Below are positions 32,159 through 53,760 of a DNA stretch of 64,000 nt, in pieces. This DNA comes from an uncultured delta proteobacterium (GTDB lineage: Bacteria > Myxococcota > UBA727 > VGSZ01): positions 172,485 to 236,484 of the forward strand of contig CAVZJB010000009.1 of assembly GCA_963775425.1 (NCBI GenBank), in the 5' to 3' direction. The notes under the pieces are model-generated. The model was given only the letters and a program-made list of their open reading frames with translations. It searched no databases and was not told where the DNA came from. The number at the start of each line of letters is the position of its first letter. The stretch's first letter is position 1. A program made the position numbers and the translations under genes.

Positions 32159-33223
32159 CTAGGCGCCGAGGCCGCACGCCGCTTCGGCGGTCGCGAGCGC
32201 GGCGTCGACAGCGTCGTTGTAGCTGTGGGTGGCGGCGTCGCAGGTGCCCGGATCTGCGAGGCACGCGTCCTGAAGCTGCGCGCTCAGGTCGGCGATGGTC
32301 GCCTGCGCGTCGGCGTATGCCTGCGTGCACGCGTCGGCGGAGTCGCCCGCGCCGGCGAAGGGGTTGTCGCAGCCGTCGCCTGCGCCGTCGGCCGGATCGG
32401 CCGGATCGCCGGCGGGATCACCGGCATCGTCGTCACCCGTGCCGGCGTCGGCGGGGTCGCCTGCGCCGTCGGCGGGCTCGCCTGCGTCGTCGGCGGGGTC
32501 GCCTGCGTCGTCGGCGGGGGCGCCTGCGTCGTCGGCGGGGTCGCCTGCGGCGCCGGCGAGGGCGTCGTCGCAGGCGGCCTGCGCGGCCGCGTAGACGGCG
32601 TCGAGGCTGGCGCTGAAGGTGTCGGGGTCGCAGGTGTCGGGGCCGGCGGCGCAGCCGTCTTCGAAGCTCGCGCGCAGCGCGTCCGCCTGGGCGTCGGCGT
32701 CGTCGAACGCGGCCTGGCAGGCGGCGAAGGCGGCGTCGTAGGCGTCGGCGCTGTCCTGAAGGCGGGCGAGCTGATCGGCGAGGTCGCCGATGGCGTGGGC
32801 GACCTCCTCGCACGCGCCGGCCTGGGCGTCGGCGGCCGCGGCGAGGGCGTCGGCGTCGGCGGCGCTGCACCCGTCGAGGATCGGCTGCAGGTCGGCGTCG
32901 CCCGCGTCGACCGCGCTCTGCAGCGCGTCGACGTCGCAGGTGCACGCGCCCTCGCTCGCGGCCTGCTCGAGGGCGGCCCGCGCCTGATCGAGCGCCGCGC
33001 CGGCGGCGCCGAGCGCGTCGTCGGCGGCGCCGGCGCCGTCGGCGAGCGCGGAAGCGGCGTCGTCGAGCGCCCCCGCGCAATCGCTCGCGTCGTCGCCGGC
33101 GTTGTCGAGTGCCTGCTGTCCCCCGGCGGCGCGGCTCCCGGGAGCGGCGCGATCGACGATGGTGTTCGAGCAGGCGGTCGCGGCCAGGAGCACCGTGGAA
33201 ATCAGGATGGGCAAAGACCTCAT
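32159..33223 (-). CDS. Ala/Asp-rich lipoprotein with DDAGDPA repeats
   Basis: ATG at 33223 (MRSLPILISTVLLAATAC). Many paired Cys. 21 bp DNA tandem repeats encode (P)ADDAGDPA units. Confidence 0.6.
   Translation of the reverse strand: MRSLPILISTVLLAATACSNTIVDRAAPGSRAAGGQQALDNAGDDASDCAGALDDAASALADGAGAADDALGAAGAALDQARAALEQAASEGACTCDVDALQSAVDAGDADLQPILDGCSAADADALAAAADAQAGACEEVAHAIGDLADQLARLQDSADAYDAAFAACQAAFDDADAQADALRASFEDGCAAGPDTCDPDTFSASLDAVYAAAQAACDDALAGAAGDPADDAGAPADDAGDPADDAGEPADGAGDPADAGTGDDDAGDPAGDPADPADGAGDGCDNPFAGAGDSADACTQAYADAQATIADLSAQLQDACLADPGTCDAATHSYNDAVDAALATAEAACGLGA
32390..32580. repeat. 21 bp tandem repeat array inside the lipoprotein CDS
   Basis: About 7 units of gtcgcctgcgtcgtcggcggg visible on the plus strand. 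Confidence 0.7.
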
Positions 33224-34292: not shown

Positions 34293-35051
34293 ATGCCGTG
34301 GCTGTTGTCACTGCTGCTCGCCGCGTCGCTCGCCGAGGACCCGCGCTTCGCCGACGCCGCGGAGCGCATGCGCAAGCTCGACTACGAAGGCGCCGTCACC
34401 GCGTTCGACGCCTTGCTCGAGGAGGCCCGTCCCGACGGCGAGCGCGTGACGCTGTTGCTCTACTCCGGCGCCGCCCGCGCCCTCCTCGGCGACGACGGCG
34501 CCGCGCGCCTCGCGTTCGAGAGCGCCCTGCGGATCGATCCGGACACGTCGTTCGACCTCAACACCTCGCCCAAGGTCGTCGCCCTCTTCGACGACGTGAA
34601 GCACACCGTCTCCGCGCGCGCGGGCCCACCGCCCCCCGCCGACGGACGCGCGGGCCCCGCGCTCGTGCCGTCGAGCGCGGCCGCTCCCCCCAGCCCCCGA
34701 AGCTCGACCGCCGCCGCGCCGCGCGCGCACGCGCCGGCCGCCGAGGAGCAAGCCAGTCCCGACCTCGCCGCCGTCGCCGGCATCGGCGCCGCCGTCGTCG
34801 GCGCCGCCGCGGGGATGGCGAGCGTGGCCTTCGGCCTCGACGTCGCCGGCAAGATGCAGACCGCGAGCGACAAGGGCACCTCGCAGCAGGACGCCCAGGC
34901 CCTCGTCGACGACGCCAACGCATCGCTCCTGTGGGCGTCCGTGCTCGGCGGCGCCTGCGTCGCCGGCGCCGGCACGGCGGTCGCAATGTTCGTCTTCGGC
35001 GACGCGCCGGAGCCTGCGGCGGCCGCGGCCGCGAAACCGACGGGGGAGTGA
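34293..35051 (+). CDS. TPR-like secreted protein with C-terminal TM
   Basis: ATG at 34293. Signal peptide. TPR-like helices. Ala/Pro linker. C-terminal hydrophobic segment. Confidence 0.55.
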   Translation: MPWLLSLLLAASLAEDPRFADAAERMRKLDYEGAVTAFDALLEEARPDGERVTLLLYSGAARALLGDDGAARLAFESALRIDPDTSFDLNTSPKVVALFDDVKHTVSARAGPPPPADGRAGPALVPSSAAAPPSPRSSTAAAPRAHAPAAEEQASPDLAAVAGIGAAVVGAAAGMASVAFGLDVAGKMQTASDKGTSQQDAQALVDDANASLLWASVLGGACVAGAGTAVAMFVFGDAPEPAAAAAAKPTGE

Positions 35052-35109
35052 GATCGCGCGCGCCGCCCACACCCTGATCACCGACCTCGCCACGGGCGAG
35101 ACGCTCGCG

Positions 35110-36489
35110 ATGACGCTGTGGCTGCGCGTCATCGCCGGGCCCGACCGCGGCAAGCGCATCCCGCTGCGCGCCGGCGCCATCGTCCTCGGCGCCGGCGACG
35201 TCGACGTCCCCCTCAGGGACCCGCGCGTGTCCCGCAGCCACGCGAGCTTCGAGCTCGTCGCCGACGGCGTGCGCGTGCGCGATCTGCGCTCGAAGAACGG
35301 TACGCGGGTGAACGGCGCCCCCACCGCCGAGGCCGTGGTCCGGCCGGGCGCCGTCGTCGAGATCGGCGACACCGCGCTCGTCGTCGACGGCGACGGCGAC
35401 GTCGTCGACGTCCCCCGCACTTCGGGCGCGCGCGGTGCCGGCGCGCCGGCGTTCGGCGCGTCGATGCGGCGCATCGTCGCCGTGCTCGATCGCGCGGCCA
35501 GGAGCGACGTGACGGTGCTCCTGCAAGGAGAGAGCGGCACCGGCAAGGACGTCATGGCGCGCGCGCTTCACGGCAAGAGCTCGCGCGCCAAGGCGCCGTT
35601 CGTCGTCGTCGATTGCGGCGCCATCGCGCCTGGCCTCGTGGCGAGTGAGCTGTTCGGGCACAAGCGGGGCGCCTTCACGTCGGCGCACGAAGACCGCGTC
35701 GGCGCGTTCGAGGCCGCGCGCGGCGGGACGCTCTTCCTCGACGAGATCGGCGAGCTGCCGCTCGAGCTCCAGCCCGCGCTCTTGCGCGTGCTCGAGATGC
35801 GGCAGGTGACACGCGTCGGCGAGAGCCACGCGCGCCACGTCGACGTGCGCGTGGTGGCGGCCACCAACCGCAAGCTGAAGAGCGAGGTGGACGGGGGCCG
35901 CTTCCGCGCCGACTTGTTCTTCCGGTTGGCGGTGGTGAGCGTGGCGTTGCCGCCGTTGCGCGAGCGCAAGGACGAGATCCTCGCGTTCGCCGGTGAGTTC
36001 CTGCGTGAGCAGGGCCGCAGCCTCGACGACGTCGCCGCCGCGGACCGCCGCCGGCTCCTCGAATATCCGTGGCCCGGCAACGTGCGCGAGCTGAAGAACG
36101 TGGTGCTGCGCGCTTGTGCGCTCACGGGCCTCGACGAACCCGTGCGGCTCACCTTCGACGACGACGCCGTCCGCGGCCGCGCGAGCGTCGCCGCCCCGGG
36201 CGCCGCCGGCGAAAGCGCCCGTGTCGAGCGCGGCGCCGCCGCCGTCGACGCGCGCCTCGCGCCGCTCGCAGACGGCGCTTTGCTCGAGCGCACGCTCCCC
36301 GAGGCGCGCCGCGCGATGCTCGACGACCTCGACGCGCGCTACCTCGCGGCGGTGCTCGAGGCGTGCGGCGGCAACGTCAGCGCCGCCGCGCGCAAGGCCG
36401 GCGTGGCCCGCAGCTACTTCCACCGCCTGTTGCAGCGGCACCGCCCGTCCGGCGGGCGCGGGGCGGGCCGCCGCGGGCCGGCGAGGTGA
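35110..36489 (+). CDS. Sigma-54-dependent transcriptional activator with N-terminal FHA domain
   Basis: FHA (GRxxxxDVxLxDPRVSRSHA). AAA+ sigma54-interaction domain with GESGTGKD, GAFTSA-like and ESELFGH motifs. C-terminal HTH. Confidence 0.9.
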   Translation: MTLWLRVIAGPDRGKRIPLRAGAIVLGAGDVDVPLRDPRVSRSHASFELVADGVRVRDLRSKNGTRVNGAPTAEAVVRPGAVVEIGDTALVVDGDGDVVDVPRTSGARGAGAPAFGASMRRIVAVLDRAARSDVTVLLQGESGTGKDVMARALHGKSSRAKAPFVVVDCGAIAPGLVASELFGHKRGAFTSAHEDRVGAFEAARGGTLFLDEIGELPLELQPALLRVLEMRQVTRVGESHARHVDVRVVAATNRKLKSEVDGGRFRADLFFRLAVVSVALPPLRERKDEILAFAGEFLREQGRSLDDVAAADRRRLLEYPWPGNVRELKNVVLRACALTGLDEPVRLTFDDDAVRGRASVAAPGAAGESARVERGAAAVDARLAPLADGALLERTLPEARRAMLDDLDARYLAAVLEACGGNVSAAARKAGVARSYFHRLLQRHRPSGGRGAGRRGPAR

Positions 36490-40925: not shown

Positions 40926-41340
40926 CAGTCGCTCCCGGCGAACAGCGGCTTCAGCCGGAACCCACCGGTGGAAGGGTCGAACAGCGCGAGCGCGGCGGCG
41001 CTGGCGCCGACCAGACCCGACCACACGAGCAGGCCCGCGCCGCCAATCTGCGCCACGGACTGCACGTGATCGTCGACGTCGTTGCGCGGCGTATTTGCGT
41101 ACGACGCCGCGAGCACGCCGGCGCCGCCGAGGGCGAGGCCGACGCTCAAAAACGCGAGCTCGCCGGGGAGGATGCTCGGGCTCACGGCGGGCCTGTCCTC
41201 GGCAGGCTTCTTGTCGGCGGCGACGGGCGGCGCGGCGTCGGCGGGCGCCGCGCACGCCGGCGTGCGGTCGACGACGCCGGCGCAAGGCGCGGGACCGGCG
41301 CCGAGGGCGAGGGCGAGGGCGACGGGGACGGCGGCGATCA
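40925..41340 (-). CDS. Small secreted/membrane hypothetical protein
   Basis: ATG at 41340 overlaps the lgt stop. 138 aa. Ala-rich hydrophobic segments. Confidence 0.45.
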
Positions 41341-42195
41341 TGCAGGGTCCGTGGCGGGCAGGGGCTCGCGCGGGTCGCGGAGCTTCCCGGCGCGGGCGAG
41401 GCGGAGGTTTCGCCGCCACACATAGATCGTGACGGGGAGGGATGCGAGGGCGACGAGCTGCGACGTCGAGACGAGCCCGTGAAACCACAGCCCGCGGTCG
41501 GTGTCGGCGCGGACCGTCTCGGTGCAAAAGCGCCACACGGCGTAGCAGACGATGTAGGCGCAGAGGGCTTCGCCGGCGAAGCGCCGCTTCTTGTACAGGA
41601 GCGCGAGCGCGACGAGGCCGACGAGACCGAACGCGGAGTCGTACAGCTCGACGGGGTGCACCGGCACCGAGCCCGACGGGTGCCCGGGCGGGAACGTCAC
41701 CGCCCAGGGCAAGGACGTGGGCACGCCGTAGCAGCAGCCGCCGAGGAAACACCCGATGCGGCCGACAAACGTCCCGAACAAGAGCCCGGGGACGCCGTAG
41801 TCGCCGAGGCCGCCCGGCTCGGGGATGCCGCGGCGGACGGTGAAGAGCCACCCCATGGCGACGGCGCCGACGACGCCGCCGTAGAAGACGTAGCCGGCTT
41901 CGAACAGCCGCGCCCAGTGCCAGGGGTCGTCCTTGAGGAGGTCGATGATGCCGCGCGCGGTGCTGCCGTCGCTGAGCACGTGGCCGCGCGCCTCGAACAG
42001 CGTGTGGAAGAGCTTGGACCCGAGGAGCGCGGAGATGACGACGACGATGGCGAGGTCAATCATGTCCCGCAGGGGCCGTCCGTCCTTGAGCCCGAGCCAG
42101 ACGCCGCAGCCGACGCCGGCGAGGTAGCCGAGCACCGTCGCCGCCACGTAGGAATGCACGGTCTGGCCGAAGGCCGAAAACAGCACCGGGTGCAC
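41338..42195 (-). CDS. lgt: Prolipoprotein diacylglyceryl transferase
   Basis: Lgt signature GRIGCFLGGCCYG and conserved HP..LY...G. Start taken as GTG at 42195 (VHPVLFSAFG). The track ORF extends further upstream into repeat sequence. Confidence 0.8.
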   Translation of the reverse strand: MHPVLFSAFGQTVHSYVAATVLGYLAGVGCGVWLGLKDGRPLRDMIDLAIVVVISALLGSKLFHTLFEARGHVLSDGSTARGIIDLLKDDPWHWARLFEAGYVFYGGVVGAVAMGWLFTVRRGIPEPGGLGDYGVPGLLFGTFVGRIGCFLGGCCYGVPTSLPWAVTFPPGHPSGSVPVHPVELYDSAFGLVGLVALALLYKKRRFAGEALCAYIVCYAVWRFCTETVRADTDRGLWFHGLVSTSQLVALASLPVTIYVWRRNLRLARAGKLRDPREPLPATDPA

Positions 42196-42210
42196 CCCGT
42201 GTCTGTAGCA

Positions 42211-42453
42211 GTTTCTTGGCGCGCTGCGCGCGCCGCGCGCTTCGCGCGGGGCCCTCCGGGCCCCCCACGCGCTTCGCGCGCGGGCCCCCCCCTTCTTCAG
42301 CTTGCGCATCGATGGGCCCGCTCGCGGAGCTCGCGCTTCCGCGAGACATGCAGCGCGCTCCTCAAAGACGCGGGACCAAGCTCGCGGCGGAGCCGCCCTC
42401 GCAGCGGACTGCGGCGGCCGGCTCCGCCGCGCTCCTTTTCGACGGCTTGACCT
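42211..42453. repeat. Inverted repeat, left arm (about 240 bp), upstream of lgt
   Basis: About 88% identical to the reverse complement of 44259..44490. Examples: cgggaccaagctcgcggcggagccgccctcgcagcggactgcggcggccggctccgccgcgctcc versus cgggacgaagctcgcggcggagccggcctcgcagcggactgcggcggccggctccgccgcgctcc. Confidence 0.8.
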
Positions 42454-42516
42454 CGTCACCCCCCCGAACGGCTCCGCCGCTACGACTGGGACGTGCCCTC
42501 GGCGTCCTCATCGGGC

Positions 42517-42658
42517 CGCGCGCCTCCTTGGCGCGCCTCCTTGGCGCGCCTCCTTGGCGCGCCTCCTTGGCGCGCCTCCTTGGCGCGCCTCCTCGGCGCG
42601 CCTCCTCGGCGCGCCTCCTTGGCGCGCCTCCTTGGTGCGCCTCCTCGGCGCGCCTCCA
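42517..42658. repeat. 13 bp tandem repeat, about 11 copies (ggcgcgcctcctt)
   Basis: Near-perfect head-to-tail copies directly downstream of the stop (42661) of the minus-strand FG-GAP gene. Confidence 0.85.
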
Positions 42659-42660
42659 CG

Positions 42661-44025
42661 TCAGCGACGCGGCGCTCTGCCTCGGTGCGGCGATCGCGCC
42701 GTGGTGATGATGGCCACGGCGGTCTTGCCCTGGTGCGGCTCGCCGACCAGGACGACGCCGGGGAGCGCCGGCATCGCCACCACATGCACAAACGCAGGGA
42801 CCTCCCACGTCGCCGTCGCATCCAGGGCGAAGCCGGCCGCAGTGCCCTTGTGGAGCGCCGCTCTCCCAGGCTCGCCCAGGTCCAGCAGGTCCGGCACGCC
42901 GTCGCCGTCGAAGTCGACGCTCACCACCGGCAGCGCGCCGTCCATGTGCCCGCCGCGCACGTCGGCCTTCGCCTGCATCGCCAGCGGTTCGCCCCCCTGG
43001 AGCCCCACCTTCACCGGGATCCGCCCGGTGACGACGACGGCCGACAGCGAGACCAGCGACGTGTCCACCTCCGCCACCACCAGCGCGCGGCCGCGTTCAC
43101 CGATGGGCGCCACGAGCCCGTCCCGCCGCCACAGCAAGCGCGGCGACGAAAACGGCCGCGCCGACGTCGACGACACCAGCCACGCCTCCGAGCGCTCGGG
43201 CACCGCGCCGCGCGTCACGCCGATCACGGCGTCGGCGCGGCCGTCCGCGTCGGCGTCGACGATGCGCACACGCAGGTCGGCGTCGCCCGCGCCGACGGTG
43301 CGCCCGAGGTCGCCGGACAGCCACGGACTCGCCTCGAGATCGCCGGCGGTGCGGCGCCACACGACCACCTCCCCCTCGTGCACGGCGATCAGGTCCGTGT
43401 CGCCGTCGGCGTCCACGTCGGCGTCGATGAGGCGCGGCCCATACAGCGACAGCGCCTCCGCGTAGCCCCGATCGGGCCGCAGCCCGCGATGCGCCCGTCC
43501 CGAGTACGCGCGCGCCTCGTGGCGCATGTGCACCAAGCGCGGCGCCTTCGCCGCCTCCCCGCCGCGCGGCGGACGCGGCACGACAAGGAGGCCGTCCACC
43601 ACAGGCAAGCGGAGCTCGCCGTCGCCGTCGCCGCGCTGGCCGCAAAGGTCCGCCACCAGCAGCGCGTCCGCGTCCGGCACCGTGAACAGCGCGTGCCCCT
43701 CGACGAGCACCTTGCCGTCGACGTCCTCGAGGCCCCGCGGTCCCGCGAACACGACGCGGCCGTCAGGGCACGCGTCCACGAAGATCGCGTCGGCCGGGAC
43801 CCGGCTGTCCGCGGCCGCCCGCCGGCCCTCCGCGTCGACGCGGACCAGGCGACGACCCCGCGCGTCCGCGCTCGTGAGCACGATGGTCCGCGGCTTCGCG
43901 AAGAAGGCATCGGAGACCGCGCCGTCGATCGCCACCACCGGCGCAGCAGCGGCGACCACGGCAGCGACGACGGCAATGACGGCGGACAGCACGCCGTCCT
44001 CTATCGCCCCGGCGCGCCCATGCAT
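42661..44025 (-). CDS. Secreted FG-GAP/VCBS-repeat protein
   Basis: ATG at 44025 (MHGRAGAIEDGVLSAVIAVVAAVVAAAAP signal-like). Repeated DxDGDGxxDL motifs (DADVDADGDTDLIAV, DADADGRADAVIGV, DFDGDGVPDLLDLG). Track ORF 42661..44346 is over-extended into non-coding repeats. Confidence 0.65.
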   Translation of the reverse strand: MHGRAGAIEDGVLSAVIAVVAAVVAAAAPVVAIDGAVSDAFFAKPRTIVLTSADARGRRLVRVDAEGRRAAADSRVPADAIFVDACPDGRVVFAGPRGLEDVDGKVLVEGHALFTVPDADALLVADLCGQRGDGDGELRLPVVDGLLVVPRPPRGGEAAKAPRLVHMRHEARAYSGRAHRGLRPDRGYAEALSLYGPRLIDADVDADGDTDLIAVHEGEVVVWRRTAGDLEASPWLSGDLGRTVGAGDADLRVRIVDADADGRADAVIGVTRGAVPERSEAWLVSSTSARPFSSPRLLWRRDGLVAPIGERGRALVVAEVDTSLVSLSAVVVTGRIPVKVGLQGGEPLAMQAKADVRGGHMDGALPVVSVDFDGDGVPDLLDLGEPGRAALHKGTAAGFALDATATWEVPAFVHVVAMPALPGVVLVGEPHQGKTAVAIITTARSPHRGRAPRR

Positions 44026-44040
44026 ACCCACGGACCAAGG

Positions 44041-44230
44041 CAAGAAAGCAGAAGGGGGAAGGGGAGAAGGCAGAAGGCAAGAAGGCAAGAAAGGCAAGAA
44101 GGCAAGAAGGCAAGAAGGCAAGAAGGCAAGAAGGCAAGAAGGCAAGAAGGCAAGAAGGCAAGAAGGCAAGAAGGCAAGAAGGCAAGAAGGCAAGAAGGCA
44201 AGAAGGCAAGAAGGCAAGAAGGCAAGAAGG
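44041..44230. repeat. 8 bp tandem repeat, about 19 perfect copies (ggcaagaa) plus about 4 degenerate copies
   Basis: Perfect octamer array at 44081-44230, starting 16 nt upstream of the FG-GAP start codon. Reads ttcttgcc on the coding strand. Confidence 0.9.
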
Positions 44231-44258
44231 TGGAGGAGCGCTGACGACGAGGCGGGGC

Positions 44259-44490
44259 GGTCAAGCCCCCCAACAGGAGCGCGGCGGAGCCGGCCGCCGC
44301 AGTCCGCTGCGAGGCCGGCTCCGCCGCGAGCTTCGTCCCGCGTCATTGAGGAGGGCGCTGCGCCTCTCGCGAAAGCGCGAGCTCCGCGAGCGGGCCGTTC
44401 GAAGGCACACCCTCAAGCGGGGGGGACCCGCGCGGAGCGCGGGGGGGCCCGGAGGGCCCGGCTGTTCGCGCGCGAAGCGCGCAAAAAAGC
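44259..44490. repeat. Inverted repeat, right arm (about 230 bp)
   Basis: Reverse complement aligns with 42211..42453 along the whole length. Confidence 0.8.
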
Positions 44491-44515
44491 AGCCCGTCGT
44501 GGGGACGACGGGCTG
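44484..44515 (-). terminator. Rho-independent terminator for the minus-strand membrane-protein gene
   Basis: Perfect 11 bp stem cagcccgtcgt / acgacgggctg with a gggg loop. Preceded by A6 on the plus strand (T6 on minus). 40 nt 3-prime of the stop at 44557. Confidence 0.6.
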
Positions 44516-44556
44516 CCACGGTCGATCGGCTGCGGGGTCGATCGGCTGCGGGGGTC

Positions 44557-45465
44557 TTAGTCGCGCGGCGGCTGGGCCAGGCCCGCGGAGGCGCCGAGGA
44601 CGGCGCCGATGCCGATGCCGAGGGGCAGGGCGTAGCTCGCGGTCTCGCTGATGAACCAGCGGGCGGCGGCGACGAGGTTGGTGTCGACCATCCACGAGGT
44701 CTCGACGGCCGAGGCCGCGCCCGCCGCCGCGAGGACCACGAGGGCGCCGACCGCGCCCATGGCGCTGCCGAGCATCGTGGAGAGCGGAACGACGCGGAAG
44801 CGCGCCGCCACGGGGTGCCCGCCGCCCAGGGCGTGGCTGGCCTCGAGGAGGCGGATGGCCATGCGCTCGGCCACGATGCGGCTGGTCAGGCCGATGACGA
44901 GGACGTCGAGGCCGAAGACAAAGGGAGCCGTCCAGTCGTCGCCCCAGGTGTAGGTCTCGGGGTGAAGGAGCGGGAGCGCGTTGCCGGCGACGAGGGCGAG
45001 CACCGTGCCGAGCACCGCCAGGCGCCGGACGTGGTGCAGGCGCAGCGGATCCGACGCCACGATGCCGGCGAGGCGGCCGCCACCCATGGCGAAGTCATGG
45101 GAGGAGTACGCGTTCTCGACGCGGATGCGCTGGCGCTGGAGCACCGAACGCGCGTCCGCGCCGCGGCCGACCAGGGTGCACAGCACCGCCAGGCCGGACG
45201 CCTCGAGCCCGCGCAAGAGCAGGCCGATCTCCCGGAACAAGCCCAGGCGGGACGGCGCCGCCACCGCGAAGGTCATCACGGGGATGCCCACGACGACGAA
45301 CATCGTCACCATCGGCACTCTCGCGGCCGGGGAGGCCATGAGGCCGAACAGCGCCCCCAACATCATCACCGACGTGAACAAACACCGTTCGCGCCCGCAG
45401 GCGAATCCGGTGGAGCACGGGGTGTCTTGTGGCGTGAAGCCCGAGTAGCGCATCGCTGACCTCAT
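44557..45465 (-). CDS. Polytopic membrane protein, hypothetical
   Basis: Multiple hydrophobic helices. ATG at 45465 or 45453. No recognisable family. Confidence 0.5.
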   Translation of the reverse strand: MRSAMRYSGFTPQDTPCSTGFACGRERCLFTSVMMLGALFGLMASPAARVPMVTMFVVVGIPVMTFAVAAPSRLGLFREIGLLLRGLEASGLAVLCTLVGRGADARSVLQRQRIRVENAYSSHDFAMGGGRLAGIVASDPLRLHHVRRLAVLGTVLALVAGNALPLLHPETYTWGDDWTAPFVFGLDVLVIGLTSRIVAERMAIRLLEASHALGGGHPVAARFRVVPLSTMLGSAMGAVGALVVLAAAGAASAVETSWMVDTNLVAAARWFISETASYALPLGIGIGAVLGASAGLAQPPRD

Positions 45466-45642
45466 CGTGGTGAACCTGATCTCATCGACCGACAACAAGT
45501 GTATCGGCCCGGTTCATCCCCGGCAAAAGCGGGCCGGAGTGTCTCACGCCGGCAGCGTGAGCCCGGTCAACGCCCTCGGTCGACGGGAGGAGGGGGCCGG
45601 AGGCTCGACTTTTCGAGGCCGGATGGCCGAGACTCCCGCTCC

Positions 45643-46521
45643 ATGCGCGCCCCCCTCGTCGCCGTTGCCCTCCTCGCCGCCGCCGCCTGCGGGGGCAGCG
45701 CAGAAGTGGTCCACGGGCTCAGCGAGCTCGAGGCCAACGAGATCATGGTCGTGCTCGAGGCCAAGGGGATCGACTCCGAGAAGCAGGCGGAGCCCGGCCG
45801 CGTGACGACGTGGAAGATCGTCGTGTCCGGCGTGGACGCCAAAGACGCGCGCCGCTACCTGGTGGCCAACCACCTGCCCCGGGCACACAGCCAGGGCCTC
45901 CCCGAGGTCTATCCCGCCGGCGGCGGCGGCCTCATCCCCACCAAGTCCGAGGAGAAGGCCAAGTTCATGATGGCCCTCCAGGGAGAGATCGAAAAGAAGC
46001 TCAAGACCCTCCCCGGCATCGTGTCGGCGCAGGTGACCGTGGTGCAGCCGGAGAAGGACATCGTGCGCGACCTGGACGCGCCGCCGCCCCTGTCCACGGC
46101 GTCGGTGGCCATCGTCTACAACGCCGTCGATCCCCGCGGCAGCGCCGCCGTCAGCCGGGACGAGGTGAAGGACCTGGTGGCGTCGTCGGTGGAGGATCTG
46201 AAGCCGGGCAACGTCACCGTGGTCATGAAGCCCAACGAGCCGGCGGTGATCGTCAGCGAATACGCCGACTCCGGCACCATCGAGGCCCCCATCACTGCGT
46301 CGAGCTGGCTCGGGCTCAAGTTCGCCGACAAGGCCTCGCGCAACAAGCTCGTCGGCTACTTCGCCGTCGGCGGCATCATCGGTGTCCTCTGCCTCGGCGT
46401 CGGCGTCGGCGGCATCGTGCGCTCCATGAGCCTGCGCCGGGCCAAGGCGCGGGCGGAGGCCGAGCTGACCTCGATGCGCAAGGCCGGTCGCGCCACCCAG
46501 ACGGGCCTGCAGCAGGGCTGA
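45643..46521 (+). CDS. YscJ/PrgK/FliF-family inner-membrane ring lipoprotein (SctJ-like)
   Basis: ATG at 45643. Lipobox LLAAAACGG. LSELEANEIMVVLEAKGIDSEK and VSAQVTVVQPEKD match the YscJ family. Single C-terminal TM (LVGYFAVGGIIGVLCLGVGV). 292 aa. Confidence 0.7.
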   Translation: MRAPLVAVALLAAAACGGSAEVVHGLSELEANEIMVVLEAKGIDSEKQAEPGRVTTWKIVVSGVDAKDARRYLVANHLPRAHSQGLPEVYPAGGGGLIPTKSEEKAKFMMALQGEIEKKLKTLPGIVSAQVTVVQPEKDIVRDLDAPPPLSTASVAIVYNAVDPRGSAAVSRDEVKDLVASSVEDLKPGNVTVVMKPNEPAVIVSEYADSGTIEAPITASSWLGLKFADKASRNKLVGYFAVGGIIGVLCLGVGVGGIVRSMSLRRAKARAEAELTSMRKAGRATQTGLQQG

Positions 46522-46544
46522 GGCCGAGGCGCCGCGGAGGGTAG

Positions 46545-47558
46545 GTGCTCGGACGTCTGCTCCATCCGCTGGATCGGCGTCAGCAGACGCTGCTGTTGAC
46601 CATGCTGAGCTTCGGCGGCTCGCAGGGCAAGGAGCTGCTGTCGCTGCTGCCCGACGACGAAGCCGGGATGATGGCCGAGAAGGCGCGGAAGCTCGACGAG
46701 ATCCCGCGCGATCGCCGCATCCCGCTCATGGTGCGCGAGCTCAAGCAGATGATGACGTTTCGCGCCATCAAGGGGCTCGAGGGCGTCGAGCCGTCCTGGT
46801 TGTCGGCGGGGTTCAAGGGCGAGAGCCCGCGGGTCATCGCCATCGCGCTCATGCACATGCCGTCGTCGATCGCGCGGCAGATCGTGGCGCGGCTGCCGGA
46901 TCCCGTGCGCGACGCGCTGCCGCCGCGGGAGGAGCTGCGGCAGGTGCCGCTGTCGGTGGTCAAGCTCGTGCGCGCGCGCTTCGACGCCAAGTTCGCCTCG
47001 ATGCCGCTCGAGCGCGACCTGGCCGAGCTGCAGTTCCGCGACCTCGTGCTGCTCACCGCCAAGGAGCTCGTCACGGTGGTGCGCCACGTCGGCGCCGACG
47101 AGATCGCCTGTGCGTTCCTCGCCGTCGGCAAGCGCGCCCTCGCCGAGTTCCTCTCCAAGCTCAGCCCCGAGGACGCCGAGGAGCTCATCGCCGCCGTCAA
47201 GCGAACCGACATCAAGGACCAGATGGAGCAGAAGGCGGCGCGCGGCTTCCTCGGCAAGGTGCTCCAGGGCTTCAACAACACCGACGAGCTGTTCCAGAAG
47301 GCGGGCCTCTATCGCCTCGCCCGCGCCATCTCCATCGAAGACCCCACCTACGTGCGTCAGATTTCGCAGCGCTTCCCGCGCCCGCACGGCCGGCTGCTCG
47401 GCGAATACCTCGCGCGCGTGCGCGACGAGGAGCTCGACGACGGCCAGGTGCGGCGGCTGCGCGATCAGGTGCTCGACGTCCTCGTCAACCTCTCGCGGCG
47501 CGGAAAGATCGAGGCGCGCTACGGGCAGCGGCCCGTGAAGTACGAGGGGCGCTCGTGA
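46545..47558 (+). CDS. FliG-like protein (rotor/switch-protein fold)
   Basis: GTG at 46545 with GGAGGG 4 nt upstream. N-terminal LDRRQQTLLLTMLSFGGSQGKELLSLL resembles FliG-N. VIAIALMHMPSSIARQIVARLPDPVRDAL and FRDLVLLTAKELVTVVRHVGADEIACAFLAVGKRALAEFLSKLSPEDAEEL resemble FliG middle and C-terminal motifs. Confidence 0.6.
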   Translation: MLGRLLHPLDRRQQTLLLTMLSFGGSQGKELLSLLPDDEAGMMAEKARKLDEIPRDRRIPLMVRELKQMMTFRAIKGLEGVEPSWLSAGFKGESPRVIAIALMHMPSSIARQIVARLPDPVRDALPPREELRQVPLSVVKLVRARFDAKFASMPLERDLAELQFRDLVLLTAKELVTVVRHVGADEIACAFLAVGKRALAEFLSKLSPEDAEELIAAVKRTDIKDQMEQKAARGFLGKVLQGFNNTDELFQKAGLYRLARAISIEDPTYVRQISQRFPRPHGRLLGEYLARVRDEELDDGQVRRLRDQVLDVLVNLSRRGKIEARYGQRPVKYEGRS

Positions 47559-48574
47559 AGATCGACCTGCGCGTCGATCCCACGGCTCGCCGCATCGCCT
47601 TTGCCGCCGCGACGCCGTTCGTGCTCGTCGCCATCGGCAGCGAGGGCTACCACGTCATCGAGGGTTGGAGCTGGCTCGACGCCCTCTACATGACGGTGAC
47701 CACGCTCTCCACGGTGGGCTTCGGCGAGGTGCATCCCCTCTCGGCCGCGGGGCGCATGTTCACCGTCGGTCTCGTGCTCGGCGGCGTCTTCACCATGGCC
47801 GCCGCGGTGACGTCGGTGATCAGCTCTCTGGTTTCAGGCGAGGTGCAAAAGCTCCTCGGGAGGCAGCGCATGGAGCGCAGCTTGGCGTCGATGAAGGACC
47901 ACGTGATCGTCTGCGGCTACGGGCGCATGGGACACATCGTTTGTGACGAGCTGGCGGTCATCAACCAGCCGTTCGTCGCCATCGACCGCGACCACAACCT
48001 CATCGAGCACTTCCCCGGCCACATCGGGGTCGCGCTCGAGGGGGACGCCACGGCCGACGAGGTGCTGCGCAAGGCCGGCATCGACCGCGCCCGCGCCGTC
48101 GTCAGCGCGCTGCCGCACGACGCCGACAACCTCTTCGTCACCATGAGCGCCAAGCTCTTGAACGAGAAGGTCTTCGTCGTCGCGCGCGCCGAAGACCCCG
48201 CCAGCGAGGCCAAGCTCACGCGCGCCGGCGCCAACCGCGTCGTCGCCCCCTACGTCCTCGGCGGCGGCCGCGTGGTGCAGGCGGTGCTCAGGCCGACGGT
48301 GCTCGACTTCATCGACCTCGCCACCAAGACGCACCACATCGAGCTGCAGATGGAGGAGACGTTGGTGCACCACAGCTCCGGCCTCATCGGCAAGAAGCTG
48401 AGCGAGTCCATGAACCGCGAGCACCGCATCATCATCGTGGCCATCAAGCGCAAGAACGGGAAGATGGAATTCAACCCGGGCGGCGAGACCAAGCTCGACG
48501 AGGGCGACACGCTGATCTCCCTCGGGCACCGCCATGACCTCGATCGCCTCGAGCGGCTCGCGGCCGGATCGTAG
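47555..48574 (+). CDS. 2-TM K+ channel with RCK (TrkA-N/TrkA-C) gating domains, MthK/Kch-like
   Basis: GTG at 47555 overlaps the FliG-like stop (GTGA). Pore TLSTVGFGEV. Rossmann VIVCGYGRMG. C-terminal RCK_C. Confidence 0.85.
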   Translation: MKIDLRVDPTARRIAFAAATPFVLVAIGSEGYHVIEGWSWLDALYMTVTTLSTVGFGEVHPLSAAGRMFTVGLVLGGVFTMAAAVTSVISSLVSGEVQKLLGRQRMERSLASMKDHVIVCGYGRMGHIVCDELAVINQPFVAIDRDHNLIEHFPGHIGVALEGDATADEVLRKAGIDRARAVVSALPHDADNLFVTMSAKLLNEKVFVVARAEDPASEAKLTRAGANRVVAPYVLGGGRVVQAVLRPTVLDFIDLATKTHHIELQMEETLVHHSSGLIGKKLSESMNREHRIIIVAIKRKNGKMEFNPGGETKLDEGDTLISLGHRHDLDRLERLAAGS

Positions 48575-49486
48575 TCACCGCTCGACGAGGGGCAGCCGGC
48601 GCTGGCGGCGCTCATCGTCGATGCGCTTGTGCGCGATGGTGCAGTAGTCGCCGTCGCGCTCAACCCCCACCCAGTGACGGTCGAGGCGGTCGGAGGCGAG
48701 CAAGGTCGAACCGGACCCGGCGAAGCAGTCGAGGATGCGGTCCCCCCGGTTCGTCCCCGCGAGGACGATCCGCTCCATCACGCGCAGCGGCTTCTGCGAC
48801 GGGTGCTTGCCGTGCACCCTCTCGCGCGCCGGCGTCACCGGGATCTCCCAGAAGTTGCGCATCTGCTTGCCGCCGTTGAGCGCCTTCATCGAGTCGTAGT
48901 TGAAGGTCCAGTTCTTCGCCTTCTTGTTGGTGTTGTTGCACAGCCACAGGATCTGCTCCGTGCTCTCGGTGAGCATGCGACAGGTGATGTTGGGCTGGGC
49001 GTTCGGCTTCGCCCAGATGATGCTGTTCACGATGCGCAGATCCAGGCGAGCGGCAATGGCACCAATCGTATAGATATTGTGATAGCTCCCGAAGATGAAG
49101 ATGTTGCCGTTCTCCTTGGTGGTGCGGCACACCTCCTTGAGCCATGCGGCGGTGAACTCCTCGTACTCGTCGTGGGTAAACCGATCCCACTCGCTGTCGA
49201 TGGTCACGTGCGAGGAGAACGCCCACGACAGACCCTTTCTGTCGCGAGCAATATTGTATGGTGGATCGGTGATACATGCATGGAAATACCGGTTGCTCCA
49301 TTGCGACAAGGTCTCCAGGCAATTGCCATGGTAGAGCTGGTTGGGCAGCGGACTGACCTTGTCGCTCCCTCGCTTCGGCAGCGTCGAGATCGATCCCGTC
49401 GAAAGCGGACGGGCCACGGGCTCGTACGGCCGCTCGAGATCGAGCGGCTCCACTTCGCCGGCCTGGAACTTCGCCATCGCCACCAT
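48575..49486 (-). CDS. Site-specific DNA methyltransferase, beta-class (motif IV DPPY before motif I FAGSGS), probably N6-adenine
   Basis: ITDPPYNI and LDCFAGSGSTLLA. ATG at 49486. GC content visibly lower than flanks. Stop directly abuts the K+ channel stop, so there is zero intergenic space. Confidence 0.85.
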   Translation of the reverse strand: MVAMAKFQAGEVEPLDLERPYEPVARPLSTGSISTLPKRGSDKVSPLPNQLYHGNCLETLSQWSNRYFHACITDPPYNIARDRKGLSWAFSSHVTIDSEWDRFTHDEYEEFTAAWLKEVCRTTKENGNIFIFGSYHNIYTIGAIAARLDLRIVNSIIWAKPNAQPNITCRMLTESTEQILWLCNNTNKKAKNWTFNYDSMKALNGGKQMRNFWEIPVTPARERVHGKHPSQKPLRVMERIVLAGTNRGDRILDCFAGSGSTLLASDRLDRHWVGVERDGDYCTIAHKRIDDERRQRRLPLVER

Positions 49487-49648
49487 CCTTCACCCTCCGA
49501 TCGCACGCACACATCCGCCGCGAGCGCAAGCTCGCGAGGATCCTTGGGTTCACGTCGTCGTCACGAAGGCGACCTCGTCGCCTCTTGTCCTCTGCTGCCG
49601 ACTATGGAGCCAACGTGCGACCGCTCCAAGTTTTCCGCCGAACGAATT

Positions 49649-52807: not shown

Positions 52808-53760
52808 CAGCTCCCTCCTCGCGCGCGGGCGACAGGCAGCGCGACGGCGATGAGCGCGCCGCTGTCGTCGAGGATGACGCGGGGAGGGCCGACACCGTCC
52901 TTGGTGGAGCGAACGAGCGCGGCGGCGTCGTCGACGAGGTTGGCGGTGATGCGCTTGATGCGCCAGCGGGCGGCGGGCTCGTGCATGTGGAGCAGCGGGG
53001 CCTTCATGGTGTCGGGGTCGCTCGCGATGGTGCGGCAGAGGTGCGGCGGCGGATCGGTGACGGAGCGCGCCGGGTCGCGCTCGAGGACGACGAAGGAGAA
53101 GCTGCTCGCGGTGACGCCGAGCTTCCTGGCGGTCTCGTCGAAGCGGGCGCGCGCCCTCTGGGGCGTGGTGAGCGCGTCGGGGGCCGCCATGCACGCGAGG
53201 TCGAGCGCGGGGACGTCGACGAGCTCGCCGTCGTCGACGCTCATCCCTTCGACGAGGATGGTGCCGTCCGCGTCGACCGGCGCGGTGGCGATCGGCTCCG
53301 GCGCGGCTGCCGGCTTCGGGGGGGGCACGCTCGCGGCGCCCTTGTCGTCGTTGCCGCCGTTGCCGTCGCGCGCGGCCGTGGGGGCCGGCGCCGGCGCCGC
53401 GGGCGTCGTCGTCGGGGACGCGGGCGTTGGCGTCGCGGGCGCCGTCGTCGCCGTCGTCGCGGGCGCCGTCGTCGCCGTCGTCGCTGTCGTCGTCGCCGCC
53501 GTCGTCGCCGCCGCCGTCATCGGGGCCGTCGTCGCCGTCGTCGTCGCCGCCGTCGTCGCCGCCGCCGTCGCCGTCGTCGTCGTCGGCGCCGGCGGCGCGG
53601 GTGCAGCCGTCGGCGGCGCGTCCCCCCTCGAAGCCGGCGCAGCGTTCGAGGCCTGTCCGGGAGGGTCGATGTCCTCCCAGCGGACGAGGCCGTAGCGGGC
53701 GGTGCAGGCGCACAGCGTCGTCAACGCGAGGGTGGCGCCGGCGAGGCGCGCGGCGCTCAC
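52807..53760 (-). CDS. Lipoprotein with Thr/Ala/Pro-rich linker, hypothetical
   Basis: GTG at 53760 (VSAARLAGATLALTTLCAC lipobox) overlaps the aminotransferase stop. TTTATAAATTAATTTATTAP low-complexity run. Stop overlaps the fmt start (TGATG). Confidence 0.55.
   Translation of the reverse strand: MSAARLAGATLALTTLCACTARYGLVRWEDIDPPGQASNAAPASRGDAPPTAAPAPPAPTTTTATAAATTAATTTATTAPMTAAATTAATTTATTATTAPATTATTAPATPTPASPTTTPAAPAPAPTAARDGNGGNDDKGAASVPPPKPAAAPEPIATAPVDADGTILVEGMSVDDGELVDVPALDLACMAAPDALTTPQRARARFDETARKLGVTASSFSFVVLERDPARSVTDPPPHLCRTIASDPDTMKAPLLHMHEPAARWRIKRITANLVDDAAALVRSTKDGVGPPRVILDDSGALIAVALPVARARGGS

What the first reader, a model, noticed from the sequence alone, without database searches (positions are those of the whole stretch)
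42211..44515. Inverted-repeat-flanked cassette holding an FG-GAP gene between two tandem-repeat arrays
Two imperfect inverted repeats of about 230 bp (42211-42453 and 44259-44490, roughly 88% identical by eye) bracket 1.8 kb. That interval contains only a minus-strand secreted FG-GAP/VCBS-repeat gene. A perfect 8 bp array of about 19 copies starts 16 nt 5-prime of its start codon. A 13 bp array of about 11 copies lies immediately 3-prime of its stop. The left arm lies just upstream of lgt. The right arm ends in the terminator of the next gene. No recombinase or transposase is present. Candidate explanations are an invertible segment recombining between the long arms, a foldback-type mobile cassette carrying cargo, or a phase-variable contingency locus. 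All are inference.
Basis: partly seen in the sequence, partly recalled or inferred. Interest (0 to 1): 0.75.

Follow-up and report, generated by a model that had tools for sequence, protein, structure and literature searches.

The report
Conserved gene flipped between inverted repeats
A conserved secreted-protein gene, together with its own promoter, has been turned around in place in this bacterium compared with ten related lineages, and mirror-image repeats mark both ends of the flipped piece; it looks like the scar of a past rearrangement, with no evidence that it is a working genetic switch.

Summary
The described anatomy is real: two ~235-bp inverted arms (42208-42452 and 44259-44493; 85% identical overall, 90% in a 144-nt core), a 13-bp array (x10.8) and an 8-bp array (x24.5) bracket one minus-strand FG-GAP gene. 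New here: in ten related lineages (39-67% protein identity) with the same flanking gene order, the FG-GAP gene is divergent from lgt. Only in the window is it co-directional. The block from its -35 box to its last conserved codon (~42694-44025) is therefore inverted in place, and the window's protein branches among relatives that have the standard orientation, so the flip is derived. The block carries its own conserved near-leaderless promoter, so flipping does not disconnect gene from promoter. The gene is a resident ortholog, not cargo. The arms have no terminal inverted repeats, no target duplications, no coding signal and no other copy in the window or in two public collections. No recombinase was found in the window. 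The arrays lie outside both the coding sequence and the -35/-10 spacer. The perfect 8-bp run is exactly 140 nt (k-1 for k=141), so copy number is probably a lower bound. Most likely this is a one-off inversion bounded by a locus-specific inverted duplication. An active switch is unproven and needs read data.

The parts
41338..42195 (-). lgt (prolipoprotein diacylglyceryl transferase), GTG start at 42195; first gene of a conserved lgt-small-PEGA-hyp-response regulator row
   Evidence: Pfam LGT E=4e-43; same gene row in relatives
42202..42207 (-). Putative lgt -10 box TACAGA, 6 nt before the GTG start. The -35 position is occupied by arm sequence (CGCGCA).
   Evidence: Layout matches L010 (TTGGCA-N17-TATGCA-N6-GTG) and L012 (TCGACG-N17-TAACAC-N6-GTG); inference
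42208..42452 (+). Left arm of the inverted repeat: non-coding and rich in short GC hairpins. Its outer end (GCAGTTTCTTGG) is homologous to the T-tail of gene X's terminator in the right arm.
42453..42517 (.). 65-nt spacer between the left arm and the 13-bp array
42518..42657 (.). 13-bp tandem array GCGCGCCTCCTTG x10.8 (7 units ...CCTCCTTG, 3 units ...CCTCCTCG, 1 unit ...CCTCCACG). On the gene's sense strand each unit reads CAAGGAGGCGCGC, which contains a Shine-Dalgarno-like AAGGAGG.
42661..43992 (-). FG-GAP_3 repeat protein gene, intact. The probable true start is the GTG at 43992 (443 aa); the ATG at 44025 would give 454 aa. N-terminal hydrophobic signal-like segment. About 10 extra C-terminal residues compared with orthologs.
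43998..44025 (-). The gene's own core promoter inside the inverted block: -35-like ATGCAT (44025-44020), 16-nt spacer, -10 TAGAGG (44003-43998), then ACGGC and the GTG start (near-leaderless)
   Evidence: Conserved TTGCAC-N16/17-TAGCAC-N5-10-GTGCTC in L006, L010, L011, L012 and L014, aligned with the window
44037..44230 (.). 8-bp tandem array AAGGCAAG x24.5 (sense strand CTTGCCTT), beginning 12 nt upstream of the -35. The perfect run 44091-44230 is exactly 140 nt. The unit matches 7 of 8 positions of the 13-mer core in mirror orientation.
44231..44258 (.). 28-nt spacer between the 8-bp array and the right arm
44259..44493 (-). Right arm of the inverted repeat (reverse complement of the left arm). 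Its outer end is the T-tail of gene X's terminator.
44488..44517 (-). Intrinsic terminator of gene X (13-bp stem, 9 G-C pairs, TTTTTT tail)
44557..45498 (-). Gene X: conserved ~295-313 aa membrane protein with no Pfam family; conserved neighbour in all relatives that have this flank

Best explanation
This is the product of a past structural rearrangement, not a demonstrated switch. In the ancestor, lgt and the FG-GAP gene were transcribed divergently from back-to-back, near-leaderless promoters, and the FG-GAP gene converged on gene X. In the lineage of this window, the self-contained unit 'FG-GAP core promoter + coding sequence' (~42694-44025) was turned around in place. The flipped unit is bounded by a lineage-specific composite inverted repeat (a ~235-bp hairpin-rich arm, a short spacer and a tandem array on each side). 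The repeat most likely arose as an inverted duplication of the sequence just downstream of gene X's terminator. The copy landed directly against the lgt -10 box, either in the same event as the inversion or before a recombination between the two copies. SHOWN: the inverted repeat; the arrays; the inversion relative to ten lineages and its position on the window's own branch; the integrity of the gene; the promoter motif inside the block; the lack of other arm copies in the accessible sequence. INFERRED: the direction of duplication (right to left); that the two arrays descend from one mirrored proto-array and then expanded by replication slippage; that lgt, having lost its -35, may now be helped by read-through from the co-directional FG-GAP gene. 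The arrays are slippage-prone tracts, so their length probably varies, but their positions give no frameshift or promoter-spacing mechanism. At most, the 5' tract could tune the promoter from just upstream of the -35.
For: (1) Ten lineages (P0009, P0011/L006-7, P0018/L008-9, P0002/L010, P0005/L011, P0004/L012, P0003/L014, P0021/L015-17, P0035/L018-20, P0042/L021-22; 39-67% identity) all show lgt(-) with FG-GAP(+). Eight of them also carry the X(-)/YscJ(+) flank. The window shows lgt(-) FG-GAP(-) X(-) YscJ(+). (2) By blastn, window 42704-43879 aligns in reverse while lgt (up to 42198) and X/YscJ (from 44549) align forward, in all 7 loci tested. Both breakpoints therefore fall in the arm+array intervals. 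(3) In the NJ tree the window's protein sits beside P0002 and P0004, which have the standard orientation. It keeps 91 of 96 columns that are >=90% conserved and aligns full length. (4) A conserved -35/-10/GTG layout in five relatives is present in the window inside the flipped block. (5) The inverted symmetry continues from the arms into the arrays: GCCTCCTT+GGCGC against GCCTTCTT, p~0.06-0.08. (6) The left arm's outer 23 nt match the terminator T-tail region of the right arm at 18 of 23 positions and abut the lgt -10. (7) No further arm copy was found in the window or in 22 loci by blastn or nhmmer. Arm modules are not enriched in the window. A 22-mer in 596 Gb of genomes gave only single chance hits, and a 25-mer in the metagenome collection gave none. 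(8) There are no TIRs or TSDs and no coding signal. No recombinase or transposase family was hit by the 38 ORFs scanned across the window.
Against: Only 64 kb of the source genome could be read, so a low-copy dispersed family elsewhere in the genome is not excluded. The nearest relative is only 67% identical in protein, so intergenic DNA is not comparable; neither the age of the arms nor the intermediate states can be seen. The array-unit similarity and the terminator-tail homology are individually weak. A single assembly says nothing about orientation heterogeneity in the population. Two perfectly identical blocks of 40 and 24 nt in the arms would still allow occasional homologous recombination.
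Confidence: 0.55

Rival explanations
1. Active whole-gene inversion switch. The arms are recombination sites, for RecA or for a recombinase encoded elsewhere, and the population toggles the FG-GAP unit between divergent and co-directional orientation. This would change read-through into lgt, or transcriptional collision with gene X, but would not turn the gene on or off.
For: Inverted repeats bracket a segment that is demonstrably inverted relative to relatives. Identical blocks of 40 and 24 nt exist in the arms. Some programmed inversions lack a nearby recombinase (PMC9881135). The target is a secreted or surface-type protein gene.
Against: The arms are 85-90% identical with indels, whereas frequent exchange would be expected to homogenise them (established knowledge of gene conversion; inference). 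No recombinase was found in the 64 kb window. The promoter and intact coding sequence lie inside the block, so inversion changes neither. No second orientation was seen in any dataset, and no conspecific sequence exists in the collections.
Confidence: 0.13
2. The arms are two copies of a dispersed non-autonomous repeat (MITE-, REP- or terminator-like element) that inserted independently on either side of the gene. Homologous recombination between them later flipped the gene.
For: The arms are small, non-coding and hairpin-rich, and they sit in intergenic positions. One end looks like a terminator tail, as in terminator-like MITEs such as SPRITE, which is named in PMC10969869. The lgt-to-X interval is a gene gain/loss hotspot in relatives.
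Against: There are no TIRs (P=0.55 and 0.78) and no TSDs above chance, in direct or inversion-swapped patterns. No third copy exists in 64 kb. No hits were found in the genome or metagenome collections.
Confidence: 0.2
3. Contingency locus. Slippage in the 8-bp tract just upstream of the -35 (and possibly in the 13-bp tract in the 3' region) changes expression of the FG-GAP gene stochastically, in the manner of upstream-tract promoters such as Neisseria nadA (own knowledge). The inverted repeat would be incidental.
For: The tracts are long and near-perfect, and they are exceptional for the window (scores 323 and 252 against 191 or less elsewhere). Tandem arrays with unrelated units abut the same -35 in two relatives: L010 (CATCGA)x6.2 and L011 (GTCCTGCG)x3.9. 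The perfect run of exactly 140 nt suggests the assembler could not resolve the true, possibly heterogeneous, length.
Against: The tracts are neither in the coding sequence nor between -35 and -10. No length polymorphism data exist. No regulator site is known. The 13-bp tract lies after the stop codon.
Confidence: 0.2
4. Assembly artefact: the orientation of the segment between the repeats was mis-resolved by the assembler.
For: Inverted repeats can confuse assemblers. The 140-nt perfect run shows the assembly is limited by k-mer size at this locus.
Against: The longest identical stretch between the arms is 40 nt, far below a terminal k of 141, so the two junctions are distinguishable. The locus is internal to a 394 kb contig.
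Confidence: 0.03

Closest known systems
Chromosomal inversions between inverted repeats (homologous recombination between inverted copies, or inverted duplication by template switching or replicative transposition)
   Same: A DNA segment is reversed relative to the ancestral order and is bounded by inverted copies of one sequence. No dedicated enzyme needs to be encoded nearby.
   Different: The segment is a single promoter+gene unit of 1.3 kb. The repeats are not an IS, rRNA or other known multi-copy sequence. Each repeat carries a tandem array at its inner end in mirror arrangement.
Programmed DNA inversions / invertons (fim, hin, Bacteroides invertible promoters, gene-altering shufflons; PMC9881135)
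   Same: Inverted repeats flank a short segment next to or containing a surface or secreted protein gene.
   Different: Those systems use short, well conserved repeats and a site-specific recombinase that is usually adjacent, and the flip changes promoter-gene linkage or the coding sequence. Here the repeats are ~235 bp and 85-90% identical, no recombinase was found in 64 kb, promoter and gene flip together, and no within-population heterogeneity is documented.
MITE-bounded composite structures (e.g. TIME-COMPs; PMC10969869, PMC13367494)
   Same: Two small non-coding repeats in inverted orientation bracket a gene.
   Different: The arms lack TIRs, TSDs and other copies. The enclosed gene is the resident syntenic ortholog, not imported cargo.
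Simple-sequence-repeat contingency loci; upstream-tract promoters such as Neisseria meningitidis nadA (own knowledge)
   Same: A long perfect short-unit tandem tract lies immediately upstream of a promoter for a secreted or surface protein gene.
   Different: The units are 8 and 13 bp (usually 1-7 bp). The host is an environmental high-GC lineage. No evidence exists of length variation or of an effect on expression. A second tract lies after the stop codon.
Eukaryotic foldback (FB) transposons (own knowledge)
   Same: Long inverted arms contain tandem short repeats and may enclose a gene.
   Different: There is no evidence of mobility or of other copies. The enclosed gene is ancestral to the locus. 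This is a bacterial chromosome.

Membership tests
Programmed inversion / inverton | Inverted repeats flank the invertible segment | tested here: met
   144-nt core at 90%, 229 nt at 84.7%
Programmed inversion / inverton | Both orientations coexist within a strain, population or species | not testable with these tools
   No reads are available and no conspecific sequence exists in the collections. Orientation differs only between distant lineages.
Programmed inversion / inverton | Site-specific recombinase encoded in or near the element | tested here: not met
   No integrase, resolvase or transposase family was hit by the 38 ORFs scanned across the 64 kb window. Some known systems also lack one nearby.
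Programmed inversion / inverton | Inversion changes promoter-gene linkage or the coding sequence | tested here: not met
   The conserved -35/-10/GTG lies inside the flipped block and the protein is full length
MITE | Terminal inverted repeats at the ends of each copy | tested here: not met
   End-to-end local alignment is no better than shuffles (P=0.55 and 0.78)
MITE | Target-site duplications | tested here: not met
   Only 5-mers are shared in the direct or inversion-swapped configurations; chance of this is 0.31
MITE | Multiple dispersed copies in the genome | tested here: inconclusive
   No third copy in 64 kb or in related loci, and none in public collections. The rest of the source genome could not be read.
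Simple-sequence contingency locus | Long, near-perfect short-unit tandem tract | tested here: met
   8 bp x24.5 (140 nt perfect) and 13 bp x10.8
Simple-sequence contingency locus | Tract within the reading frame or between -35 and -10, so that unit changes switch expression | tested here: not met
   The 8-bp tract starts 12 nt upstream of the -35. The 13-bp tract starts 3 nt after the stop codon.
Simple-sequence contingency locus | Tract length varies between cells or isolates | not testable with these tools
   Single assembly only. The perfect run equals k-1 for k=141, so even the assembled length is unreliable.
Foldback-type mobile cassette | Element with its cargo occurs at different loci, or the cargo is foreign to the locus | tested here: not met
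   The FG-GAP gene is the syntenic ortholog, next to lgt in ten lineages (next to gene X too in eight of them)

The most novel reading that the evidence does not exclude
The arms and their mirrored tandem tracts form a working whole-gene inverton in an uncultured high-GC 'Deltaproteobacteria'/Myxococcota-like lineage. A resident promoter+gene unit would be flipped reversibly by RecA or by a distant recombinase. The output would be rewired read-through into the essential lgt operon (whose -35 the arm has replaced) and altered collision with gene X, not an ON/OFF switch of the gene. The slippage tracts would act as a second, tunable layer.
Probability: 0.12. Interest if true: 0.7.

Novelty: new member of a known kind. 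Interest (0 to 1): 0.45.

Why it matters
This is a clean, small example of how one resident gene can be turned around in place while it, and probably its essential neighbour lgt, stay functional. The flipped block runs exactly from the gene's -35 box to its last codon, and the outer junction sits exactly at the lgt -10 box. If read data showed both orientations or variable tract lengths, it would be a rare candidate for phase variation in an environmental, uncultured lineage, and an inverton that moves a whole gene together with its promoter. If not, it is a well documented rearrangement scar. It would also be a warning that inverted repeats plus tandem repeats around a surface-protein gene do not by themselves indicate a switch.

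Tried and rejected
(1) Dispersed-repeat search. A 22-mer from the arm in genome contigs gave five single chance hits in unrelated phyla. A 25-mer in metagenome contigs gave none. blastn, nhmmer and motif counts in the window and in 22 loci found no third copy.
(2) Source contig. The exact protein is in the protein collection on a 394 kb contig, but the DNA look-up returned nothing, so the rest of the genome could not be examined.
(3) The metagenome census by protein pattern returned only one distant locus.
(4) Rfam found nothing meaningful in 40-47 kb.
(5) Sigma-70 consensus scan: no strict promoter match. Promoters were instead inferred from conservation.
(6) MITE features (TIRs, TSDs) were tested and not found.
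(7) Coding potential of the arms was rejected: non-synonymous differences far outnumber synonymous ones in all six frames.
(8) Diversity-generating retroelement was rejected: the arm mismatches are not adenine-specific (3 of 14 start from A) and no reverse transcriptase family was hit.
(9) The long ORF 42661-44346 reading through the 8-bp array was rejected as the real gene. Orthologs and the conserved promoter place the start at 43992 (or 44025).
(10) Precursors in relatives: none has flanking inverted repeats, and their arrays are short with unrelated units.
(11) The literature search for an identical architecture found nothing specific.
Full report
OBSERVATION.
The window is 71.6% G+C. Between lgt (41338-42195, minus strand; Pfam LGT E=4e-43) and a conserved membrane-protein gene X (44557-45498, minus strand) lies one minus-strand gene with an FG-GAP_3 repeat (E=2.3e-9). 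It is bracketed by an inverted repeat. The repeat finder reports a 144-nt core (42309-42452 / 44259-44402) that is 90% complementary, plus outer pieces. Gapped blastn gives 229 nt at 84.7% (E=1e-66), and this is the only such pair in the 64 kb window. A global alignment and the lgt promoter analysis put the homology limits at 42208-42452 and 44259-44493.

Inside the arms lie two tandem arrays. The first is GCGCGCCTCCTTG x10.8 (42518-42657), which ends 3 nt after the stop codon. The second is AAGGCAAG x24.5 (44037-44230). These are by far the highest-scoring arrays in the window. A strong intrinsic terminator for gene X (44517-44488, minus strand) abuts the right arm.

THE KEY NEW RESULT: THE SEGMENT IS INVERTED RELATIVE TO ALL RELATIVES.
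The protein has 47 homologs besides itself, the closest at 67% identity. The named ones come from MAGs labelled 'Deltaproteobacteria bacterium'. I recovered genomic context for ten lineages:
- P0009
- P0011 (L006-7)
- P0018 (L008-9)
- P0002 (L010)
- P0005 (L011)
- P0004 (L012)
- P0003 (L014)
- P0021 (L015-17; 21 contigs)
- P0035 (L018-20)
- P0042 (L021-22; 39% identity)

All ten have lgt on one strand and the FG-GAP gene on the other, that is, divergent. Where the other flank is present, it reads gene X(-), YscJ/FliF(+), FliG-like(+), TrkA-type channel(+). The window has the same flanks, but its FG-GAP gene is on the same strand as lgt and X.

At the nucleotide level, window 42704-43879 aligns in reverse to all seven loci tested, while lgt (up to 42198) and X/YscJ (from 44549) align forward. 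Both breakpoints therefore fall inside the arm+array intervals. In a neighbour-joining tree the window's protein sits beside P0002 and P0004, both with the standard orientation, so the inversion is derived on the window's own branch. The gene is not decaying: it aligns over its full length and keeps 91 of 96 columns that are >=90% conserved, within the range of the other members.

WHAT EXACTLY WAS FLIPPED.
Five close relatives share a promoter-like layout directly upstream of the gene: TTGC(A/G)(C/G), N16-17, TA(G/C)NA(C/A/G), N5-10, then GTGCTC, where GTG is the start codon. The window has ATGCAT (44025-44020), N16, TAGAGG (44003-43998), ACGGC, then GTGCTG (GTG at 43992). In the alignment the TGC of the -35, the TA of the -10 and the GTG are invariant. 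The real start is therefore probably 43992, the mRNA is near-leaderless, and the core promoter travelled with the gene. At the other end, homology to orthologs stops at the last conserved arginine (about 42694), followed by ten lineage-specific codons. The flipped ancestral unit thus runs from the -35 to the last codon.

On the lgt side, the sister lineages L010 and L012 show -35, N17, TA..CA, N6, GTGCA(T/C)CCG. The window keeps TACAGA (42202-42207), N6 and GTGCACCCG. However, arm sequence begins at 42208, and the -35 position holds CGCGCA. The outer junction of the left arm is therefore exactly at the edge of the lgt -10. It is inference, not demonstration, that lgt now has a weakened promoter and may benefit from read-through from the co-directional FG-GAP gene.

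NATURE OF THE ARMS.
Each arm folds into a string of short GC-rich hairpins (z about -2.3 to -3.2). The arms are not coding: non-synonymous differences far outnumber synonymous ones in all six frames. They match no Rfam family. They have no terminal inverted repeats (P=0.55 and 0.78) and no target-site duplications above chance, in direct or inversion-swapped configurations.

No third copy was found by any route:
- none in the window or in 22 fetched loci, by blastn or by an nhmmer profile;
- the hairpin modules are not enriched elsewhere in the window;
- a 22-mer from the best-conserved block gave only five single chance hits in 596 Gb of species-representative genomes;
- a 25-mer gave no hit in the metagenome collection.

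None of the relatives has the arms, flanking inverted repeats or comparable arrays. The outer 23 nt of the left arm (GCAGTTTCTTGGCGCGCTGCGCG) match the right arm's GCTGCTTTTTTGCGCGCTTCGCG at 18 of 23 positions. In the right arm that stretch is the T-tail of gene X's terminator, which is an ancestral feature (X terminators are visible in relatives). This suggests that the right copy is the original and the left copy is derived. The evidence is weak and is marked as inference.

THE ARRAYS.
The inverted symmetry continues into the arrays. The reverse complement of the 8-mer (GCCTTCTT) aligns unit by unit with the 13-mer (GCCTCCTT+GGCGC). A 7-of-8 match in the mirror orientation has p of about 0.06-0.08 against shuffled or random units. 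This is suggestive only, but it fits a single mirrored proto-array that later expanded separately.

The 8-bp array begins 12 nt upstream of the -35, so it is neither in the coding sequence nor in the -35/-10 spacer. The 13-bp array lies after the stop codon. On the sense strand its unit reads CAAGGAGGCGCGC, so seven perfect AAGGAGG and three GAGGAGG motifs sit in the 3' region. Their significance is unknown.

The longest exactly periodic run of the 8-bp array is exactly 140 nt (44091-44230). That equals k-1 for a terminal k of 141, the k seen in the names of several related metagenome contigs ('k141_...'). A de Bruijn assembler cannot resolve a longer perfect tract, so the assembled copy number is probably a lower bound.

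Tandem arrays with unrelated units abut the same -35 in two relatives: L010 has (CATCGA)x6.2 between the two divergent -35 boxes, and L011 has (GTCCTGCG)x3.9 ending 2 nt before the -35. The upstream edge of this promoter may therefore be recurrently slippage-prone, or under selection for variability. This keeps a nadA-like tuning role alive as a minority hypothesis (the comparison is from my own knowledge).

CONTEXT.
The 38 ORFs scanned across the window encode ordinary chromosomal functions: UvrB, RNase PH, DnaK, Fmt, NDH-2, kinases, regulators and others. None hit a recombinase, integrase or transposase family. The survey of programmed inversions defines them as frequent inversions of regions flanked by inverted repeats, catalysed by recombinases that are usually, but not always, encoded nearby (PMC9881135). 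The MITE review gives TIRs, TSDs and multiple copies as MITE features (PMC10969869).

INTERPRETATION.
What is shown: a derived, in-place inversion of a self-contained promoter+gene unit, bounded by a lineage-specific composite inverted repeat.

Most likely (0.55), this is a one-off rearrangement. It could be an inverted duplication of the region downstream of gene X's terminator, made together with the flip (template switching or a similar replication-based event). Alternatively, the duplication came first and recombination between the copies followed. In either case the tracts would then have expanded by slippage.

Rivals:
- two copies of a rare dispersed repeat plus homologous recombination (0.2);
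- a tract-length contingency function that is independent of the inversion and not mutually exclusive with it (0.2);
- an active reversible switch (0.13);
- an assembly artefact (0.03; the longest identical stretch between the arms is 40 nt).

The foldback-cassette idea is rejected because the gene is the resident ortholog.

VERDICT.
There is no evidence for ongoing switching, mobility or classical phase variation. The finding is an additional, unusually tidy example of an inversion bounded by inverted repeats. It would rise in interest only if read data show orientation or tract-length heterogeneity.

Noticed in passing
window 44091-44230: The perfect 8-bp periodic run is exactly 140 nt, which is k-1 for a k=141 de Bruijn assembly. 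The tract was probably collapsed by the assembler, so its true (possibly heterogeneous) length is unknown.
   Followed up: partly
L010:333-369 and L011:7769-7799: Two relatives carry short tandem arrays with unrelated units, (CATCGA)x6.2 and (GTCCTGCG)x3.9, directly abutting the upstream side of the FG-GAP -35 box. This is the same position as the window's 8-bp array. In L010 the array sits between the two back-to-back divergent promoters.
   Followed up: partly
window 43990-44025 and 42193-42207; L006, L010, L011, L012, L014: Both lgt and the FG-GAP gene appear to use near-leaderless promoters (-10 box 5-10 nt before a GTG start) that are conserved across lineages whose intergenic DNA is otherwise unalignable. 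The annotated starts of the FG-GAP gene in L011 and of lgt in L012 look misplaced by this criterion.
   Followed up: partly
loci L006, L008, L010, L011, L012, L015, L018 and the P0009 locus, between lgt and gene X: The lgt-to-X interval is a gene gain/loss hotspot. Different lineages carry an extra NAD kinase, acyltransferase, Ig-like proteins, a 143-aa or 450-aa protein, a cytosine/purine permease, or a Dus/thioesterase block on either side of the FG-GAP gene. The window and L014 carry none.
   Followed up: no
window 44511-44553: A 16-bp direct repeat (GGTCGATCGGCTGCGG, 2.1-2.4 copies) lies between the stop codon of gene X and its terminator. It is a third tandem repeat within 2 kb.
   Followed up: no
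window 45643-48574 and 34600-36489: A YscJ/FliF-family lipoprotein, a FliG-like protein and a TrkA-type K+ channel are conserved neighbours of the locus; the YscJ/FliF gene is present wherever that flank was recovered (eight of ten lineages). A sigma-54 activator with a YscD-like FHA domain lies 8 kb away. This could be a non-flagellar use of FliF/FliG-like parts.
   Followed up: no
window 48575-49489: An apparently solitary N6/N4 DNA methyltransferase gene (no adjacent restriction gene seen) is conserved near this gene cluster in several relatives (L006, L018, P0009 locus).
   Followed up: no
L014:1453-1708: The 256-nt 'intergenic' region between the FG-GAP gene and gene X appears, by eye, to contain an unannotated small ORF with a lipoprotein-type signal (MRPLRLALASAASVALAGC...).
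   Followed up: no
window 53387-53612 and 32446-32558: Long in-frame tandem repeats (periods 9/12/24 and 21/63 nt) lie inside ORFs: the N-terminal extension of the formyltransferase-containing ORF, and an ORF with no Pfam family. These would encode low-complexity protein regions.
   Followed up: no
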